From: Callorhinchus milii
Taxonomy: Eukaryota
Assembly: GCF_018977255.1 (NCBI RefSeq)
Contig: NW_024704743.1
Span: forward strand, 14,076,001 to 14,140,000
DNA length: 64,000 nucleotides
Reading direction: 5' to 3'
The notes under the pieces are model-generated. The model worked only from the letters and a program-made list of their open reading frames with translations, made no database searches and had not been told where the DNA came from. Made by a program: the position numbers and the translations under genes. Positions within the stretch are counted from its first letter, which is position 1. Each line of letters opens with the position of its first letter. Positions 39,930 to 60,837 of the stretch are shown here, piece by piece.

Positions 39930-42124
39930 CCCTCTCCCTCTCCAATGCCCTGAAGTCATCTGAACTCCTACACCTCTGGTTTTCCCAGACTGATCTCCCC
40001 TCCTCACTCTCTTTTCTCCACAACTCCCTCTCCACCATTCTGGACTCCCTCACTTCCCGAACTGCCTCATACTCCCATAAATCCCCGGTACACCAGCCAT
40101 CTCCGTTCTCTCAAGGTACAAATGCGAGCTGCTGAACGGGCCTGGACCAAATCCAAACTTAACTGTCCATTGGCAGATTTGGCTTCACCACACCAAGACC
40201 TACCGATGCACTCTTACCTCCGCCAAATCCTCCTTGGAGGCAAAGGACAACCCCAGGCTTCTCTTTTCTACCACAAACCATCTCCTTCATCCACCTTCCC
40301 ATACCTCGCCCATCCTCTCCTCAAACTCCAACTGAGGAGATGCTGGACTTCCTCGAATCTAAAATCGAGGGGATACGTTCAGCCACCTCAGCCCCGTCCA
40401 CAGCCACCCCCACATCACCTCTCCCTCATGATCCACCCCCACCCATCCCCCCCTATACTCCTTCGACCCTATCTCTCCCTCCTCCCTCACAACTGTCTGC
40501 AAACTCAAACCCACCACCTGCTGCCTCGATCCCATCCCCTCCTCATCTCCCAGCTCCACCTTCTGGACCCCTCCTATCCGACGTCATCAACCTCTCCTTG
40601 TCCACCGGTTCAGATCCCACCCCCCTAAAAACAGCCGTCATCACCCCCATCCCGAAAAAACCTTCCCTGGACCTATCCCTTCTCTCCAGCTACCGCCCCA
40701 TCTCTAACCTCCCATTCCTCTCCAAGGTCCTGGAACAAGTCGTCGCGTCCCAGCTCTGCTCCTTTCTCTCTCGCCATTCCCTCTTTGAACCCCTCCAATC
40801 CGGCTTCCACGCTGCCCACAGCACGGAAACAGCCCTGGTCAAAGTCACTAATGACATTCTGAACATCTGTGATCAGGATTCCCTCTGCCTCCTTGTCCTC
40901 CTCGACCTCTCTGCCGTCTTCGACACTGTTGACCACTCCATCTCATACACCCCCTCGCCTCACTCAATCTTCACGGACCTGCCCTTGCCTGGTTCGATTC
41001 CTATCTCTCTCACCTTCTCCACTGTGTTGCCTCTAATGTTTCTCCTCCAGCCCCCACACTGTCACATCTGGCATCCCCCGGGGCTATGCCCTCTCCTCTT
41101 TAATATCTACATGCTCCCCCATGGTGACATCATCCGCAGACATGGGGTCAACTTACATATGTATGCGGATGACACCCAACTCTATCGTTCTGCCTCCACC
41201 CTCAACTCCAGGGCCACTGCTGTCCTGACAGACTGCCTCTCAGACATCAAGTCCTGGATGAGGGCAAACTTCCTACAGCTGAATGTGAACAAGACTGAGG
41301 CCCTCCTGATTGGCTCACACCAGCGCCTCAGCACCTCAGGCTCTGGCAGCATCAACCTCCATGGTTGCACACTTCAACTCACTAAGCCATCAGGAACCTG
41401 GGTGTCTTGTTCGACCCGCAACTGTCTTTTCTTCCCCACATCCAAGCCATGACCCGCTCTGCCTTCCCTCACCTCCATAACATCGCCCGATTCCGCCACT
41501 ACCTCACCCCTCAGGCCACTGAAACTCTTGTTCATGCCTTCATCACCTCCAGGCTCGACTATGCAAACGTCCTGCTTGTCGGTCTTCCCAACTCCTCCCT
41601 CCACAGGCTGCAGATAATCCAGAACTCTGCAGCCCGTGTCCTCTCCCGCACCAAACTCCGTGACCCCATTTCCCCCATTCTCGCCCGACTCCATTGGCTC
41701 CCTATCCTTCAGAGGATCCAGTTCAAAATCCTGGTCCTCACCTACAAAGCCCTCCATGGCCTCACCCCACCCTATCTCTGTGACCTCCTAACCCCTTATC
41801 AACCCGCCGGTTCCCTCAGCTCAGCCGGCTCTGGCCTGCTCCACGTCCCCCGCCCCACCCGCCCCACCATTGGCGGGAGACCCTTCAGCCACTCTGCCCT
41901 CAACCTCTGGAACTCCATCCCCCAATCACTCTGCCTCACACTCTCCTTAGCCTCCTTCAAGTCCTGCCTCAAAACCCTCCTCTTCGACCATGGTCACCCC
42001 CCTTTCCCTCCTCTCCCTTCTCCCCCGATCCCAGCTTGGGTCTGAAATGCTGTACACTGTCCAGCGCCTTGGGACGTCCTCCCGACGTGAAAGGCGCTAT
42101 ACAAATGTAATCTTGTTGTTGTTG
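39930..42124 (+). mobile_element. Long L2-clade LINE copy with frameshifted reverse transcriptase
   Basis: ORFs 40340-41452 and 41407-42045: YRPISNLPFLSKVLE, LQSGF, HSTETAL, LDLSAVFD, HMYADD, SRLDY, LHWLP; intact 3' stem-loop + (TTG)n. Confidence 0.95.
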
Positions 42125-45971: not shown

Positions 45972-46710
45972 TAACAACTTACACTTATACATCATCCCTC
46001 ACATAGTCTTGGGAGAGCATTACAATAACAGGGCGGACACCAGGTTGGGGCAGGGGAGGAGGGGTGGACCGTAGGCACCGTCAAAGAGGTAGGTTTTAAC
46101 CTCGTTGAGCTCTCAGTCTCTAGTGAGTTTGCTGGAGTTGGTAAGCTAATGTCATTTACCTCCTCCATCTCAAGTCCTGATACCAAACTGCACCAGTGCT
46201 GGTCATGGCCTGCCCAGCCTCTGCTCTGCTCACTGGCTTGAAAACAGATACAGATAGAGATGGGGCGAGGCAGAGGTTTGAGGGAGTTCCAGAGGTTGGG
46301 GTGTAGAATTGGAAAACTTGGCCACAGGTAGTAGAGTGGGGGATGTGTAGCAAGCCGAGTTACCTGATCAGAGGAGCGCGGGAGGAGAAGATCAGAGGAG
46401 CTAGGGCATGAAATAATTTGTAGGTGAGGGTGAGGGCCCTGAAGTTGATCCACTGAAAGACAGGGAGCCAGTGGAGCCTGGCGAGGACTGGGGTGATGGA
46501 CATATGGAGTTTAGTGTTGGTCAGGAGGTGGGTGGAATTTGGGATGAGCTGAAGTTGAAGGATGGTGGATCTAGGGAGACCAGACCAGGAAGTTTGAAAA
46601 TTCCTGCCAGGAGGTGGTTAAAGTGTGGCTAGGGATTTGGATCGGATTTAGCGTGAGGTAGGGACAGAGACGGACAATGTGGCAGAGGTGGAAAAAAGCA
46701 GTCTTGATCA
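45972..46710 (-). mobile_element. L2-clade LINE fragment carrying an MLH1 exon-12 copy
   Basis: L2 3' features (CTCTGGAACTCCCTC, AAAACCTACCTCTTTGAC, tail) interrupted by 46104-46238. Confidence 0.8.
46104..46238 (-). pseudogene. Partial duplicate of MLH1 exon 12 in intron 12
   Basis: 120/136 identical to 46951-47086 by hand alignment, with one 1-nt deletion. Confidence 0.92.
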
Positions 46711-46890: not shown

Positions 46891-47231
46891 CTGGACAATG
46901 AATTAGTTGAGGCTTTGCTGCATGACTGTATAGGGTCCTCCTCAAACTTTGTTGAGCTCTCAGTCTCTAGAGAATTTGCTGGAGCTGGTAAGGCAGTGTC
47001 ATTTACCTCCTCCATCTCACAGTCCTGACCCCAAGCCACACCAGTGCTGTTCGTGGCCTGCCCAGCCTGTGCTCTGCACACTGGCTGAAGGAAGGCATCC
47101 AGCTTCTGCTCCCTGGAATCTGTCCGCACCATCTGGTGAGCGTATAGCTTGTCACCAGAGTCTTGAGCTGCTGATGCCGTTGAAGGTTTGACAATTTCAT
47201 CCGAGGCTATGGAAGAGCCTGGCAGCAGTGT
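46891..47231 (-). CDS. MLH1: MLH1 exon 12 (linker) TLLPG...[21 protein letters not shown]...NSLS
   Basis: tag/gtaaat; 341 nt phase 0-2; conserved linker motif [14 protein letters not shown]. Confidence 0.95.
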
Positions 47232-48797: not shown

Positions 48798-48910
48798 GAT
48801 TGATGAAGAGCAAAAAGATGCACTTTTTCACAGAATAATTTGCATTGGATATATAACCTTTCATCTTGAAAGCTAATTTTGGATCTTCAAGACCCACTTC
48901 AATCAATTCT
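48798..48910 (-). CDS. MLH1: MLH1 exon 9 [37 protein letters not shown]
   Basis: cag/gtaagt; 113 nt. Confidence 0.97.
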
Positions 48911-49782: not shown

Positions 49783-49871
49783 CTGCTGACAGCGTTTCCA
49801 TAGATTGTTCGGATATTGTCCAAGGTTGAAGCATTTAATAAAGTCCTTACATCAGCCATAGTTCCACCATG
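49783..49871 (-). CDS. MLH1: MLH1 exon 8 [29 protein letters not shown]
   Basis: tag/gtatga; 89 nt. Confidence 0.96.
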
Positions 49872-50766: not shown

Positions 50767-50809
50767 CTTCTTCACAGCAAAGCTCACCCCTGAATTGTGA
50801 ATAGCATAC
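50767..50809 (-). CDS. MLH1: MLH1 exon 7 YAIHNSGVSFAVKK
   Basis: tag/gtgggt; 43 nt. Confidence 0.95.
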
Positions 50810-51266: not shown

Positions 51267-52178
51267 TGTTAGAATATACACTTTTTGTATATTGCTAGAA
51301 TCATAATAGATGTTGTGAATGGGTTAACTTTTAAGTTAAGTGTGGGAGACAACTGGACTGACAGTCATGGGATAGGACACATCTGGTTTTCTCTGTTTTT
51401 GAAAGAATAACAGACAGGGGCAGGGGATCTCGACTGAGTAATAAGTCGCTAGATTCTGACAGGGCCAACCGACAGAAGGCAACCCTCAAGAATAGAAACT
51501 AATGAGCAAGTTGCTTAAACTAGAGGACCTTGGTACCATCCCGGGATCCTGATAAGAAATAACCAGTCACTTAAAAGGAATATACTAATGATCCCACACT
51601 ACAAAATAATGAGCACCAGATACAGCTCTAAACTGATCAATCCTCTATCTTAGACAATTAGATCAGATAACAGGGGTCTTAAGGACAATGTGTATGTGCG
51701 CTGAGGCACGTACACCCCATGAGGTGCTCACGTGAACCCAGCATGATTTTGACAGGTGATCTAAGGTCCGCACCATGATTGGACGAACATCGGTATAAGA
51801 GTTCCCATAACTTTGTGTACGGGGCCGTCCCGGGTCGCGGAGACAAGGGTACGGGAGATGGGGCCATCCCGGGTCGCGGAGACAAGGGTACGGGAGATGG
51901 AAGACTGAGAGCTAGAAACACTAAGACTGAGGATATCAGATGGAAGATTGAAAGCTGTAAGCAAGAAGACTGAAAGCATGAAGAATCAAACTTGTGTGTT
52001 GTAAAGACACAGTGTTGCACTCGAGATATCTACTGTGGTATTATTCTGTTATAAGATCTGTTGATTGTACCGGCCTTTGGTCTGACCCATCGGGATATTG
52101 GGGAATAACGAACGAATAATAATTAAACAGTCAGATATCTGGTTGCAAACGGATTATGGCTGATTTTATTTTCCAACA
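51267..52178 (+). mobile_element. Solo LTR (ERV1- or Gypsy-like), 912 bp
   Basis: TGTTAGAA...TTCCAACA termini, ACAT TSD, GATTGG 51777, TATAA 51794, ATTAAA 52122, 39-bp tandem duplication 51821-51898. Confidence 0.85.
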
Positions 52179-52361: not shown

Positions 52362-53715
52362 ATAGCTTCACAACCCCCACCTCCCCAGCCCAGGTCACTG
52401 GGCTATTTGTAATACTTCAAGCTACTGACCTGGCTGAGATCAAGTAAAGGACCAAGCTGGTTATAATTTGAGGCTGTATGATTTAGTTTTACATTAAAGA
52501 TGCGTTTTAAAAAATACAGCACAGGATGTATTAATGTGGAATTTTCACGTCTACCTATCTCGCCGCATAATGGTCCGTCCGGTAACAACAACTTGTATTT
52601 ACTGTATATAGCTCAGTTCACCTGGGGTAGCATCTTGGAGCTTAGTGCAAGCACTACTTGCTAAATACAAACTCCCAGGTTGAAGTTCTTTGTCCTGCAA
52701 AAATGTACAGGGCATTTAACATTAAATTCGGATCTGATCTGGACGTGTAGATCAAGTTATAAATAAACACTTGAACTCTTGAATTAGCCGTCTTGAAAAA
52801 TAACGGGTTCCCCTCAATTTCCTCTTTCGGAAAGATATCAAAAGATATAAGAAAGATATAGATAAACAAATAAAGAGCAGGAGACAAATTATAATAACAA
52901 TCCTTGCAAGTTATATAGTGCCTGTTTACTTGGGACATTCCTGTTATCCTACCTACCTGCTCATAACCTCTACAATTTTAGCATATTCCTCACTGGGATT
53001 CTTCAGAGCTTTCCTTCGTGTGTTAATGTTGTAGAAGAGATCCTCCACCTGCAAACACAAAGCAGCATTTTGTGCCTCTGAGCGTTGTGAAGATGAGGAA
53101 CTTTCTACCCCGGAAAGAACAGACACGGAATCAATAGGGATGTTTAAAAGATAATTAAACAAGTTGAGCGGTAGAACTATTAAGGGGTAGAGTGAGATGG
53201 TGGGGCACTAGGATTAAAAGATCTGCCAAGATCTAATAGAACAGTAGAAAAGGCTCGATATGCAGGATGGGCTAAAGATCCCATGTCACTATTCTAAAAG
53301 AGAAGGGAGTTTCTCTCTCCCAGTTCCTGGCCAACAAGCCCCAAAATAAAATTAGGCACTCACTCCATGGCTATTTTTGGGACACCATTGTGTGCAATTG
53401 GCTGCCGTGTTTCGCCTACAAAATACAGTCAATCCACTTTACAATATATCCTATGAAACGCTTTGAGACGACTCAATTACGTGACAAGGAACTATATCAA
53501 CTGCAAGGATTATTATTATTAAGGATCTGTTATTTCAGGCTGTGACACCACAGTCTGCTGTGTTTTTTGAAACGCATCTTTAATGTAAAACTAGATCATT
53601 CAGCCTCAAATTATAACCAGGTTGGTCCTTTACTTGATCTCAGCCAGGTCAGTAGTTTGAAGTATTACAAATAGCCCAGTGACCTAGGCTGGGGAGGCAG
53701 GGGTTGTGAAGCTAT
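52362..53715. repeat. 160-bp inverted repeat pair (52362-52521 / 53556-53715) flanking MLH1 exon 6
   Basis: 151/160 identical, ungapped, by hand reverse-complement alignment. Confidence 0.95.
52957..53048 (-). CDS. MLH1: MLH1 exon 6 [30 protein letters not shown]
   Basis: cag/gtaggt; 92 nt. Confidence 0.97.
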
Positions 53716-54111
53716 TAGCTATGCGCTATTCTTGGGCATCTCAGAAACCGAATCTGGCTCTCCACCAACAGGCCACAATGACATTTATTTTTTTGTTTAC
53801 TGACCAGACCCTAGGCCATGGGCCAAATTCGACACACAGCGTTTGGTGGTCATCTCTGGAAATGATTAAAAACAAAGGAAAAATAACTTAAATTTTGATG
53901 TGAATTCCTTGGTTTAAAACAGGGGATTTGTGTGTGAGTTGGGAACAATAATACATAAAAGTTTCACTCCATTTTTAGTGGTATTTCTTAAGTGACTGGA
54001 AGCACCCACATCACCCCGACTCATGAAAACTCTGCTCTGAAAATGGATTGAACTAAAGCTGTTTGAAAATAGATTGAGCTGGAGTCTGTAATTTATACAG
54101 TGGAACCCATA

Positions 54112-54515
54112 ATCATCATTATCTTTTCATTGGTATAGTGCCTTTCACGTTGCGAGGATGTCTCAAAGCTCTTCACAGGATTTACTGTGAAGTGACTGTA
54201 TATTTGTGGGCAAACGCAGCAGCTACTTTGTGGACAGTAATGTTCCAGCTATGAAGTGAATGCCCAATTTTATTTGGGAGACTGCTGGCCGGGACACTGG
54301 GAGAAACTTCTTTTTTTTGTACAGTGCTGTGGGATCTTTAACAACCACCTGAACCTGAGCCTCAGGTTAACGTCTCATTTTAAGAACAGCATCTCCAACA
54401 ATGCAACATATTCTAGCACTGCACTGGAGTGTCAGATTAAACTATGTGAGTTCAAGTCCTGACGTGGGCTTAAACCCACAAACTTTTGACTCAGAGGTGA
54501 GCGCCAGGCTGACAG
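54112..54515 (-). mobile_element. Deu-domain-type SINE, family B
   Basis: Reverse-complement head (TGACTCAGAGGTGAG), core GGGATCTTTAA...GGTTAACGTCTCAT, tail. Confidence 0.78.
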
Positions 54516-55056
54516 AAGCTAAAAAAGCATCTCTATGAGGTTAGCTTATTGTGTAGCCTTGGGACTGGACGCTCATATAAAATTATCCCAAATATTCATC
54601 GTTACTTCCTTGTACACTTGCAAAATGACAAAATATCTCCCTTGCATCTCGAGCTCTTGCTCAATCTTTGTAATGAGCTTTGAGACATTCTCTCTATGTG
54701 AAAGGCACTCCAATTATTGTTATTTCTGGAATGCAAATAAAATAATAGTCCTGACATTTGAGATAGTGCCTTATCTCATTGTTGAGATGTCTCAAAGCCT
54801 TTCAAAGAATTTACTATACAGTGTGTGATTGGTAGATGAACACGCTTTGTCTTTGAACTGGTCTTTAGGTGTTACTGAAATCATTTCCTATACATTGTTT
54901 TTGCACAGCAGAGCTGATGACTGGGAAGGGCACATTTCTTTAGACTTTGTATATAACACGGTTGAATGCTTTGGATCCCATCCAAAGTGGATAGTTTCCC
55001 AAAGACTGCGCATCCTTTACAGTAAAGATATAACTGGGAAGATAAAGTTTCCTTAC

Positions 55057-55129
55057 TGCGATCTGTGTGCCTTGGTTTCCAGCACATGGTTTTGGAGGAG
55101 CCTTTAATTGTCCATCACAGTAACTAGCC
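55057..55129 (-). CDS. MLH1: MLH1 exon 5 [24 protein letters not shown]
   Basis: cag/gtaagg; 73 nt; GHKL GT motif. Confidence 0.97.
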
Positions 55130-55962
55130 CTGAGCAACAAAGAAAAAAATATATTAACACAAAATTTGGCTTGGCAAGCGAGCAAACTGGTATCCGAGTC
55201 CCTCTTCACTCCCCAAGAATGCAGTCTCTATACTGTCCAATGCGGAGGACTGAAACATAAATTTTAACAGAAACTGCAGGTGCCATTTCCGACAATGAAA
55301 AGCTATGAAATAAAAGAATGCTAAATTTTGATAATTTGACAGAGAAACTTTAGCAGTGAGTAGGAAAAATGATAAGTATGGTGTGCCAACATATATAAAA
55401 ATAAATAATCAGCCTGATTATAAAGCTGTTGGTGGGTCCAATATTCCCATGGCCACGTAACAAACAAAGTGGGGAAAAAGTGGTTTCCTTCGAGCCATCA
55501 GATATGAGCTGACGTCACTTCCTGTGTATATACAGCCATCAGCAGTGACCCGAAGACCCAGAAGTCAGCCACATTTTGGAGTGGGAAGCGGGTTAATCTG
55601 TGTCAGATAGCAGGTGTACCTCACTTCTGGTTAGGACGAGTTCCCAGGCCACTATGCTAGAAACAAACCCACGCTATAATAGGGGGTGCGGAGGGGAGAA
55701 AAGGGGGTTATAATGGATTTGCCCTACATTCTTATTTGCAGTGCTCTGCATGATGTTCTGTCAATGTTACAGGTGAAAAGTATATTGAGAGGGCCTTAGC
55801 AGGTTCTTAGCAACTCGTTTCAACTTTGAAACCCGCTATCTTCTTGTACAGGGAGCACAAAGGAATTTTATACCCTTACCACCAAAAACAAAAGGCAGAA
55901 ATGAGAGGTAAACAGATGAAATTGAAAGAAATTGTGTGCATGTCATTCATAAAGCCTCTTAC

Positions 55963-56036
55963 CTGTATGCACATTTTCCATCAGCAGTTTTGGTTGTTAA
56001 GGTTAAGTGTGCCACGTGGCTTATGCTTGCAAGAGC
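55963..56036 (-). CDS. MLH1: MLH1 exon 4 [24 protein letters not shown]
   Basis: cag/gtaaga; 74 nt. Confidence 0.97.
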
Positions 56037-59288: not shown

Positions 59289-59387
59289 CTCTCCTCTAAA
59301 TCCATAAGTCGCAATTGTAGTAAGATCTTCAAACTTCTGTAGCTTGCTGGTGGTAAACCTCTCACAAACTATTTCCAAATCTTCCTT
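59289..59387 (-). CDS. MLH1: MLH1 exon 3 [33 protein letters not shown]
   Basis: cag/gtatgt; 99 nt; MutL signature GFRGE(AL). Confidence 0.98.

Positions 59388-60663: not shown

Positions 60664-60837
<174 letters not shown>

What the first reader, a model, noticed from the sequence alone, without database searches (positions are those of the whole stretch)
52362..53715. 160-bp, 94%-identical inverted repeat enclosing MLH1 exon 6
Arms 52362-52521 and 53556-53715 align ungapped with 9 mismatches, and exon 6 lies near the middle of the 1034-nt loop. The arms are not the common L2/SINE families, although part weakly resembles a decayed motif near positions 40-78. In pre-mRNA they could form a long duplex that loops out a 92-nt frameshifting exon (skipping leading to NMD), promotes a single-exon circRNA, or recruits ADAR. 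In DNA they could mediate inversion of exon 6. The mismatches show no strand bias for G-U pairing, so selection is not demonstrated.
Basis: partly seen in the sequence, partly recalled or inferred. Interest (0 to 1): 0.75.

Follow-up and report, generated by a model that had tools for sequence, protein, structure and literature searches.

The report
Backwards intron copy around MLH1 exon
A 160-base piece of intron lies twice, in opposite directions, on either side of exon 6 of a fish MLH1 DNA-repair gene; it is not a common mobile element and is most likely a neutral scar of local DNA copying, and the RNA assemblies seen suggest that the exon is normally kept.

Summary
The inverted repeat is real: 160 nt, 9 mismatches, arms 435 and 507 nt from the 92-nt MLH1 exon 6 (minus strand, 52957-53048). 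It is not a dispersed young repeat. In two runs that look like whole-genome DNA, contig depth over the arm is like unique DNA (13-38) against about 10^6 on the neighbouring SINE, and one contig per run covers the diagnostic sites. So it is a two-copy local inverted duplication. The intron-5 arm has a 9-bp hairpin at one junction and an 8-nt repeat at the other, so it is likely the inserted copy (template switching or break repair). Nothing shows function: no transcript-strand bias in pairing, splice sites not masked, and an equal-sized repeat dropped at random in this gene would enclose an exon 61% of the time. Depth arithmetic in two RNA-like runs fits exons 5 and 6 on one contig. Rare skipping, circles and editing stay untested. 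One contig has the shape of an exon-6 inversion, but its switch lies in a 34-nt identical run, where 31-mer assemblies cannot tell inverted from normal. Verdict: real, probably neutral; low interest.

The parts
52362..52521 (.). Left arm, in MLH1 intron 6; likely the original (donor) sequence
   Evidence: joined to the loop in contigs X1 record 1 and X2 record 8; X5 record 20 covers 153 of its 160 letters and runs 102 letters beyond
53556..53715 (.). Right arm, in MLH1 intron 5; reverse complement of the left arm with 9 mismatches; likely the inserted copy
   Evidence: outer part joined to the right flank in X1 record 1 and X2 record 13; its inner part (53556-53625) is in no listed piece
52957..53048 (-). 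MLH1 exon 6, 92 nt, frameshifting if skipped
52422..52455 (.). Longest identical run between the arms (34 nt; partner 53622-53655); a switch here leaves all 31-mers unchanged
53536..53558 (+). 9-bp hairpin with 4-nt loop at the inner junction of the right arm; possible snap-back scar
   Evidence: 0.75% of 2000 random 31-mers of the window fold as well as DNA; the other three junctions fold weakly
53710..53724 (+). Near-tandem repeat at the outer junction of the right arm: the 8 letters that end and follow the donor recur just past the junction
   Evidence: null 0.15% of 200000 random pairs
53273..53521 (+). High-copy SINE-like repeat inside the loop, ending 34 nt before the right arm; has an older inverted partner at about 54107-54340 in the same intron
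   Evidence: depth 1e5-1e6
55057..55129 (-). MLH1 exon 5 (73 nt), upstream neighbour
50767..50809 (-). MLH1 exon 7 (43 nt), downstream neighbour

Best explanation
The two arms are a two-copy inverted duplication of otherwise unique intron DNA, likely made in one step when a stalled or broken DNA end copied 160 bases from about 1 kb away on the opposite strand and pasted them into intron 5, and likely neutral since. Shown: the repeat, its low copy number, its sharp ends, the exon inside it, the two junction features at the intron-5 arm. Inferred: that the intron-5 arm is the new copy and that template switching or synthesis-dependent end joining made it. Inferred from depths: exon 6 is included in the dominant mRNA. 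The arms are predicted to pair in pre-mRNA and may cause a little editing or skipping as a by-product; that is untested.
For: Copy number: arm bins 18.7 and 12.8 (X1), 26 and 37.9 (X2), against 7.4-16 and 8.6-33 in the 12 other low bins and 7.7e5-1.0e6 at the SINE peak, counted from 80% likeness; one contig per run carries the other letter at 53594, 53600 and 53621. No third copy in the window, no Rfam family. No homology runs on past the ends (inner flanks 105 of 300 shuffles score as well; outer flanks 4 of 300, for a short off-register AT-rich match). Junction scars on the right arm only. Neutral-looking decay: 7 of 9 changes are transitions, spread evenly (KS p 0.92), 3 vs 4 G-U. Divergence of 5.6% (95% range 2.6-10%) exceeds the differences between window and contigs outside the arms (0 in 739, 0 substitutions and 2 gaps in 1062, 3 in 527, 2 in 803), so it is not two haplotypes assembled side by side. 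Enclosing an exon is expected by chance: 61% of 8578 placements. A second local duplication (part of exon 12 copied directly into intron 12, 87%) sits in the same gene. Implied contig depth for exon 6 and the two parts of exon 5: 46.3, 46.3, 46.4 in X5; 42.1, 42.0, 43.4 in X6.
Against: No related species could be examined, so neither the ancestral state nor conservation is known. The junction tests were chosen after seeing the features, among four junctions. The template is 1 kb away, beyond the 100 bp used to define MMBIR templated insertions (PMC8421209). The tool warns that contig depth is not a copy number, a filter drops some records, and copies under 80% likeness would be missed. The equal-depth result depends on giving 2 ambiguous letters to exon 5 (otherwise 44.2 vs 51.2 and 46.4 in X5). 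A 160-bp duplex this stable across an exon resembles arrangements that do raise skipping in human reporters (PMC13019944). In X5 the left arm carries the right arm's letter at one site (53621), which could be conversion between the arms and would make the age look younger than it is.
Confidence: 0.72

Rival explanations
1. A working splicing element: the arms pair in pre-mRNA, loop out exon 6 and send part of MLH1 mRNA to nonsense-mediated decay (or make a circle, or recruit ADAR), and this is kept by selection.
For: Predicted duplex -274 kcal/mol with all arm-to-arm pairing in the lowest-energy fold; exon near the middle of the loop; skip gives a stop at nt 18 of exon 8; 4 A-C mismatches on the transcript strand, a type ADAR favours (recalled). 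Deleting one inverted Alu reduced skipping in 7 of 8 human reporters (PMC13019944, passages).
Against: No transcript-strand bias; chance of enclosing an exon 61%; depths fit exon 5 and 6 on one contig in both RNA-like runs; the 7 differences of X5 record 20 are the number expected from left-arm letters alone, leaving no room for majority edits if the five unlisted ones are left-type (inference); 92 nt is short for a single-exon circle. Human MLH1 already skips its 92-nt exon at a few percent (2054 reads vs 86202 and 35946; PMC6635756 supplement 2), so a low skip level alone would not point to the arms.
Confidence: 0.1
2. Two copies of an old or very rare mobile element, or an older and longer duplication, whose 160-nt cores have been kept alike by gene conversion between the close inverted copies.
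For: One site in the left arm has the right arm's letter in X5; in X1 the count of 4 differences implies one more such site among the inner five. A 6-nt direct repeat flanks the left arm. The left arm has a weak inner hairpin (z -2.2 in one of four folds).
Against: No other copy at 80% or better in two genome-size runs; a 6-nt flanking match arises in 27% of random 160-nt windows; no decayed homology past the ends; mismatches evenly spread. The shared letters can equally be ordinary polymorphism.
Confidence: 0.1
3. The arms recombine and invert the 1-kb loop, so that an allele with exon 6 backwards (an MLH1 null) exists in some animals or cells.
For: X1 record 1 (1414 nt, depth 7.4) reads the loop backwards (53315 to 52577), then left-type inner arm, right-type outer arm and the right flank to 54179: the shape of an inversion junction.
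Against: The switch falls between 53621 and 53656, in the 34-nt identical run; an inversion there changes none of the 31-mers, and these contigs come from a simplified 31-mer graph (PMC12424806, passage). The partner junction is not among the laid contigs (only one contig at 53594 and 53621). X2 breaks at the same run as a plain branch (records 8 and 13). Losing mlh1 makes male zebrafish sterile (PMC8531508, passage), so a common null is unlikely.
Confidence: 0.05
4. The arms are the ends left by an old inversion with staggered breaks, or the terminal repeats of a transposon that captured the loop.
For: Inverted repeats at both ends of a segment are the mark of both (recalled).
Against: The loop holds exon 6 in the right order, strand and frame with exons 2-9, which a single inversion or a captured fragment would not leave; low copy number.
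Confidence: 0.03

Closest known systems
Templated inverted insertions from template switching: four-point model (PMC5453318, abstract and first part of Results read); MMBIR templated insertions (PMC8421209, passages); snap-back SD-MMEJ (PMC5728401, passages)
   Same: A stretch of unique DNA copied in reverse-complement near its source, making a new inverted repeat without selection; short repeats and a hairpin at the junction; found as germline variants.
   Different: Here the copy is 160 nt and 1 kb from its source; those papers treat short-range events (within 100 bp for MMBSearch). The ancestral sequence is unknown here, so the switch points cannot be mapped.
Inverted Alu pairs that loop out exons, including TBXT (PMC13019944, passages)
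   Same: Long complementary arms in the two introns around one exon, within about 0.5 kb; predicted stable duplex.
   Different: The arms are unique two-copy DNA, not a mobile-element family; no skipping or duplex shown; the fish exon appears included in the main mRNA.
Reverse-complementary matches around circular RNA exons (PMC6376117, passages)
   Same: Complementary sequence on both sides of an exon.
   Different: Single-exon circles come from long exons (medians 169-253 nt) between very long introns; here 92 nt between 2.0- and 2.1-kb introns; no back-splice seen or testable.
Other two-copy inverted duplications noted by this scan in the same genome (e1-7812334, e1-7812319; AI notes, unchecked)
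   Same: 100-205-nt unique intron DNA present twice in opposite orientation, one case around an exon.
   Different: Different genes; their claims were not tested here.

Membership tests
Young dispersed repeat (SINE, MITE) | Many similar copies in the genome | tested here: not met
   Arm depth like unique DNA, one contig per diagnostic site, at 80% likeness in X1 and X2; none elsewhere in the window
Young dispersed repeat (SINE, MITE) | Target-site duplication | tested here: inconclusive
   6-nt match around the left arm, chance rate 27%; none of 5 nt or more around the right arm
Young dispersed repeat (SINE, MITE) | Match in a repeat library | not testable with these tools
   No repeat library and no whole genome on hand
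Template-switch / MMBIR templated insertion | Inverted copy of nearby unique sequence | tested here: met
Template-switch / MMBIR templated insertion | Template within 100 bp (MMBSearch definition) | tested here: not met
   Arms are 1034 nt apart (definition). Works like it, not filed under that strict definition.
Template-switch / MMBIR templated insertion | Microhomology or snap-back scars at the junctions | tested here: inconclusive
   Hairpin and 8-nt repeat at the right arm (0.75% and 0.15% nulls, chosen after the fact)
Template-switch / MMBIR templated insertion | Ancestral allele without the copy | not testable with these tools
   All 24 listed runs are of one organism; no look-alike in other scanned genomes
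Duplex-driven exon skipping or circularisation element | Complementary arms in both flanking introns | tested here: met
   (fold is a prediction)
Duplex-driven exon skipping or circularisation element | Skipped or back-spliced product exists | tested here: inconclusive
   Only contigs were available, exon 7 lay outside the laid stretch, and the joint table was filled by SINE matches (15 shown, 1324 not); depths fit inclusion
Duplex-driven exon skipping or circularisation element | Effect lost when an arm is deleted | not testable with these tools
   needs a minigene
Duplex-driven exon skipping or circularisation element | Conservation or covariation of the arms | not testable with these tools
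   no orthologous sequence reached; strand-bias proxy negative
ADAR-edited intronic duplex | A-to-G differences between RNA and DNA in the arms | tested here: inconclusive
   One RNA-like contig over the left arm has the expected number of differences and an unedited A at 53594; contigs drop minor variants and the run type is a guess
Known structured RNA (Rfam) | Match at a family's gathering score | tested here: not met
   2 matches, 18.9 of 96 bits and 21.3 of 42 bits, E 3.2 and 0.82

The most novel reading that the evidence does not exclude
A one-off DNA copying accident built a non-transposon RNA duplex around a frameshifting exon of the main mismatch-repair and crossover gene, and this fish now uses it to divert part of MLH1 mRNA to decay in some tissues; the same arms occasionally flip exon 6 and make a null allele, a rearrangement that mismatch repair itself would normally suppress between 94%-identical copies.
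Probability: 0.1. Interest if true: 0.6.

Novelty: new member of a known kind. Interest (0 to 1): 0.17.

Why it matters
As it stands it matters little: one more local inverted duplication in a genome where the scan has noted several. It is a clean natural test case for whether a unique, non-Alu duplex of 160 bp is tolerated around a constitutive frameshifting exon of an essential gene; the data seen suggest it is. If regulated skipping or a real inversion allele were shown, it would be a new way of setting MLH1 dose in a vertebrate and an example of a splicing switch born without a mobile element.

Tried and rejected
No whole genome is held, so copy number rests on laid contigs. Rfam: nothing; an H/ACA-like reading of the arm end was dropped for that reason and because single-arm folds are weak (z -0.6 to -2.2). 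Similarity to positions 6-78: chance level. Target-site duplication at the left arm: chance level. Homology past the arm ends: none in register. No RNA holder on record was listed; X5 and X6 are guessed to be RNA. Laying at 80% likeness answered the copy-number question but filled the joint and loose-end tables with SINE matches, so no exon joint was displayed; only one arm and exons 5-6 were in the laid stretch, so a 5-7 joint could not appear. The inner part of the right arm is in no listed piece; the tool says a hole proves nothing, and removal of a short low-depth link next to the SINE during graph simplification is my guess. Only 4 of the 16 holding runs were laid. Earlier findings by sequence, near place and relatives: nothing. 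Paper searches for this element or for MLH1 exon 6 loop-out (listings only) showed no title on it; that is not proof of absence. The species was not tested: 'elephant shark' comes from earlier AI notes; contig totals of 885-963 million letters fit a genome near 1 Gb.

Full report
Observation. The repeat is as described: 52362-52521 and 53556-53715, 160 nt, ungapped, 9 mismatches, 1034 nt apart. It is the only pair at 88% or better among 116 self-matches of 100 nt or more in the window; the median is 74%. MLH1 lies on the minus strand. Exons of the recalled human sizes were found in order (2: 60721-60811, 3: 59289-59387, 4: 55963-56036, 5: 55057-55129, 6: 52957-53048, 7: 50767-50809, 8: 49783-49871, 9: 48798-48910), and they join into 224 codons without a stop. 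Exon 6 matches human MLH1 residues 153-181. The right arm is in intron 5, 507 nt from the exon; the left arm is in intron 6, 435 nt from it. Skipping exon 6 alone gives a stop at nt 18 of exon 8; skipping 5+6 or 6+7 would keep the frame. The claimed likeness to positions 40-78 is at chance level.

Is the arm a mobile element? It has no other copy in the window and no Rfam match. A search of public runs listed 24, all one organism, 16 holding part of the stretch. I laid 4 of them on 52556-55255, which holds the right arm and exons 5 and 6, counting from 80% likeness. In X1 and X2 (885 and 963 million letters of contigs; run type not on record, taken as genomic) the two arm bins have depth 18.7 and 12.8, and 26 and 37.9. 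The 12 other low bins range 7.4-16 and 8.6-33; the SINE next door reaches 7.7e5 and 1.0e6; even the bin holding a short decayed repeat fragment (52556-52645) reaches 414 and 615. At three diagnostic sites a single contig per run carries the other arm's letter. The tool warns that depth is no copy number, but a contrast of four to five orders of magnitude leaves little doubt that the arm is not a dispersed family at this likeness. Older relatives under 80% would be missed.

Is it an assembly artefact? Unlikely. The left arm is joined to the loop in X1 and X2, 153 of its 160 letters lie in X5 record 20, and the outer part of the right arm is joined to the right flank in X1 and X2. The arms differ by 5.6%, while contigs differ from the window by 0-3 letters per 500-1000 outside the arms. 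The inner 70 nt of the right arm were in no listed piece, so that junction rests on the window alone.

How it arose. Homology stops sharply. The right arm has a 9-bp hairpin at its inner junction, matched by 0.75% of random 31-mers of the window, and at its outer junction the 8 letters that end and follow the donor recur one letter further on (null 0.15%); the other three junctions fold weakly. These tests were picked after seeing the sequence, so they are suggestive only. They fit snap-back and loop-out scars of synthesis-dependent end joining (PMC5728401, passages) and the inverted, nearby-templated insertions of MMBIR, found as germline variants in humans (PMC8421209, passages). The four-point template-switch model makes new inverted repeats without selection (PMC5453318, abstract and first part of Results). 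The 1-kb distance is longer than those papers cover, so I say it works like them rather than filing it under their strict definition. An old inversion or a captured segment is excluded because exon 6 has the right strand, order and frame. Part of exon 12 is also copied locally into intron 12 (87%, direct), and earlier AI notes list many similar local copies in this genome (not checked here).

Does it do anything? The arms are predicted to pair along their whole length (-273.7 kcal/mol as a duplex), but the opposite strand would pair a little better (-283.3), and an old SINE pair inside intron 5 is predicted at -221.5. The mismatches give 3 G-U, 4 A-C, one C-C and one A-A on the transcript strand, 7 of 9 are transitions, and they are evenly spread: neutral decay explains this. 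Predicted openness of the exon 6 acceptor and donor is 0.36 and 0.35 with or without the arms; this excludes masking, not looping out. Position is no argument: of 8578 placements of the same geometry between exons 2 and 12 with both arms in introns, 61% enclose an exon and 49% a frameshifting set; 10 of these 11 exons are frameshifting. In X5 and X6, guessed to be RNA, exons stand above introns, and the bin depths resolve to 46.3, 46.3, 46.4 (X5) and 42.1, 42.0, 43.4 (X6) for exon 6 and the two parts of exon 5 if 2 ambiguous letters go to exon 5. Each contig has one depth, so this fits one contig through the 5-6 joint with no surviving branch. It is an inference: the joint itself was not displayed, since SINE matches filled the table (1324 joints not shown), and exon 7 was outside the stretch. 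Contigs drop rare forms, and a decay-sensitive form would be rare. X5 record 20 has 7 differences over 53563-53715, the number expected from left-arm letters once 53621 is set aside, so no majority editing is implied. For comparison, inverted Alu duplexes do raise skipping in human reporters (7 of 8; PMC13019944, passages); single-exon circles have medians of 169-253 nt (PMC6376117, passages); and human MLH1 skips its 92-nt exon at a few percent anyway (2054 reads against 86202 and 35946; PMC6635756, passages and rows of supplement 2; I identified the exon by its 92-nt size and recalled coordinates, and did not check whether decay was blocked or Alus flank it).

The inversion-shaped contig. 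X1 record 1 reads the loop backwards, enters the arm with left-type letters (53594, 53600, 53621), leaves with right-type letters and goes on into the right flank. That is what an inversion of exon 6 would look like. But the switch lies in the 34-nt identical run, and an inversion there changes none of the region's 31-mers, whereas a switch in any other run changes 2-50. These contigs are built from 31-mers and simplified by Minia3 (PMC12424806, passage), so the path carries no information on orientation. The partner junction was not seen, X2 simply branches at the same run, and mlh1 loss sterilises male zebrafish (PMC8531508, passage). I give a real inversion about 5%; long reads would settle it.

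Verdict. A real two-copy inverted duplication around MLH1 exon 6, not a transposon family, probably a neutral repair or replication scar (0.72). A selected splicing role is not excluded (0.10), because conservation, rare skipping and editing could not be tested. Searches of the paper library (listings only) showed no title describing this element; bioRxiv supplements were closed and subscription papers are not held. The species name elephant shark comes from earlier notes and was not tested. Interest 0.17.

Noticed in passing
window 46098-46238 and 46945-47086: About 142 nt of MLH1 exon 12 (46891-47231, minus strand) are copied as a direct repeat, 87% alike, into intron 12, with a donor-like end at 46160. 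A second local duplication in the same gene.
   Followed up: partly
window 52572-52579: Three contigs (X1 record 1, X2 record 8, X5 record 16) stop aligning at 52577 and X1 has 4 letters fewer than the window here; the window has a 4-nt unit twice, so this is a small indel polymorphism or an assembly difference.
   Followed up: partly
window 52456 (partner 53621): In X5 the left arm carries the right arm's letter at this site, while X1 and X2 carry the window's: polymorphism or gene conversion between the arms.
   Followed up: no
window 52577-53315 and 53556-54179, X1 record 1: Contig with the shape of an exon-6 inversion; indistinguishable from a 31-mer graph artefact.
   Followed up: yes
window 51821-51900: 39-nt unit repeated 2.1 times at 97%, GC-rich, in intron 6; the stretch around it looks unlike the rest of the intron.
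   Followed up: no
window 52584-52641 and 52891-52923: Decayed repeat tails inside the loop, inverted relative to the SINE tail at 53487-53521; one ends about 60 nt from the left arm, as the SINE ends 34 nt from the right arm. The spacers are not homologous.
   Followed up: partly
window 52603-52694, minus strand: An AG...GT-bounded open stretch of exactly 92 nt inside the loop, one of 5 such hits of that size on this strand of the window; probably chance.
   Followed up: no
window 40163-42045: Long decayed LINE reverse-transcriptase frames (429 and 219 aa) inside an MLH1 intron, with inverted partners elsewhere in the window; family name L2/CR1 recalled, not tested.
   Followed up: no
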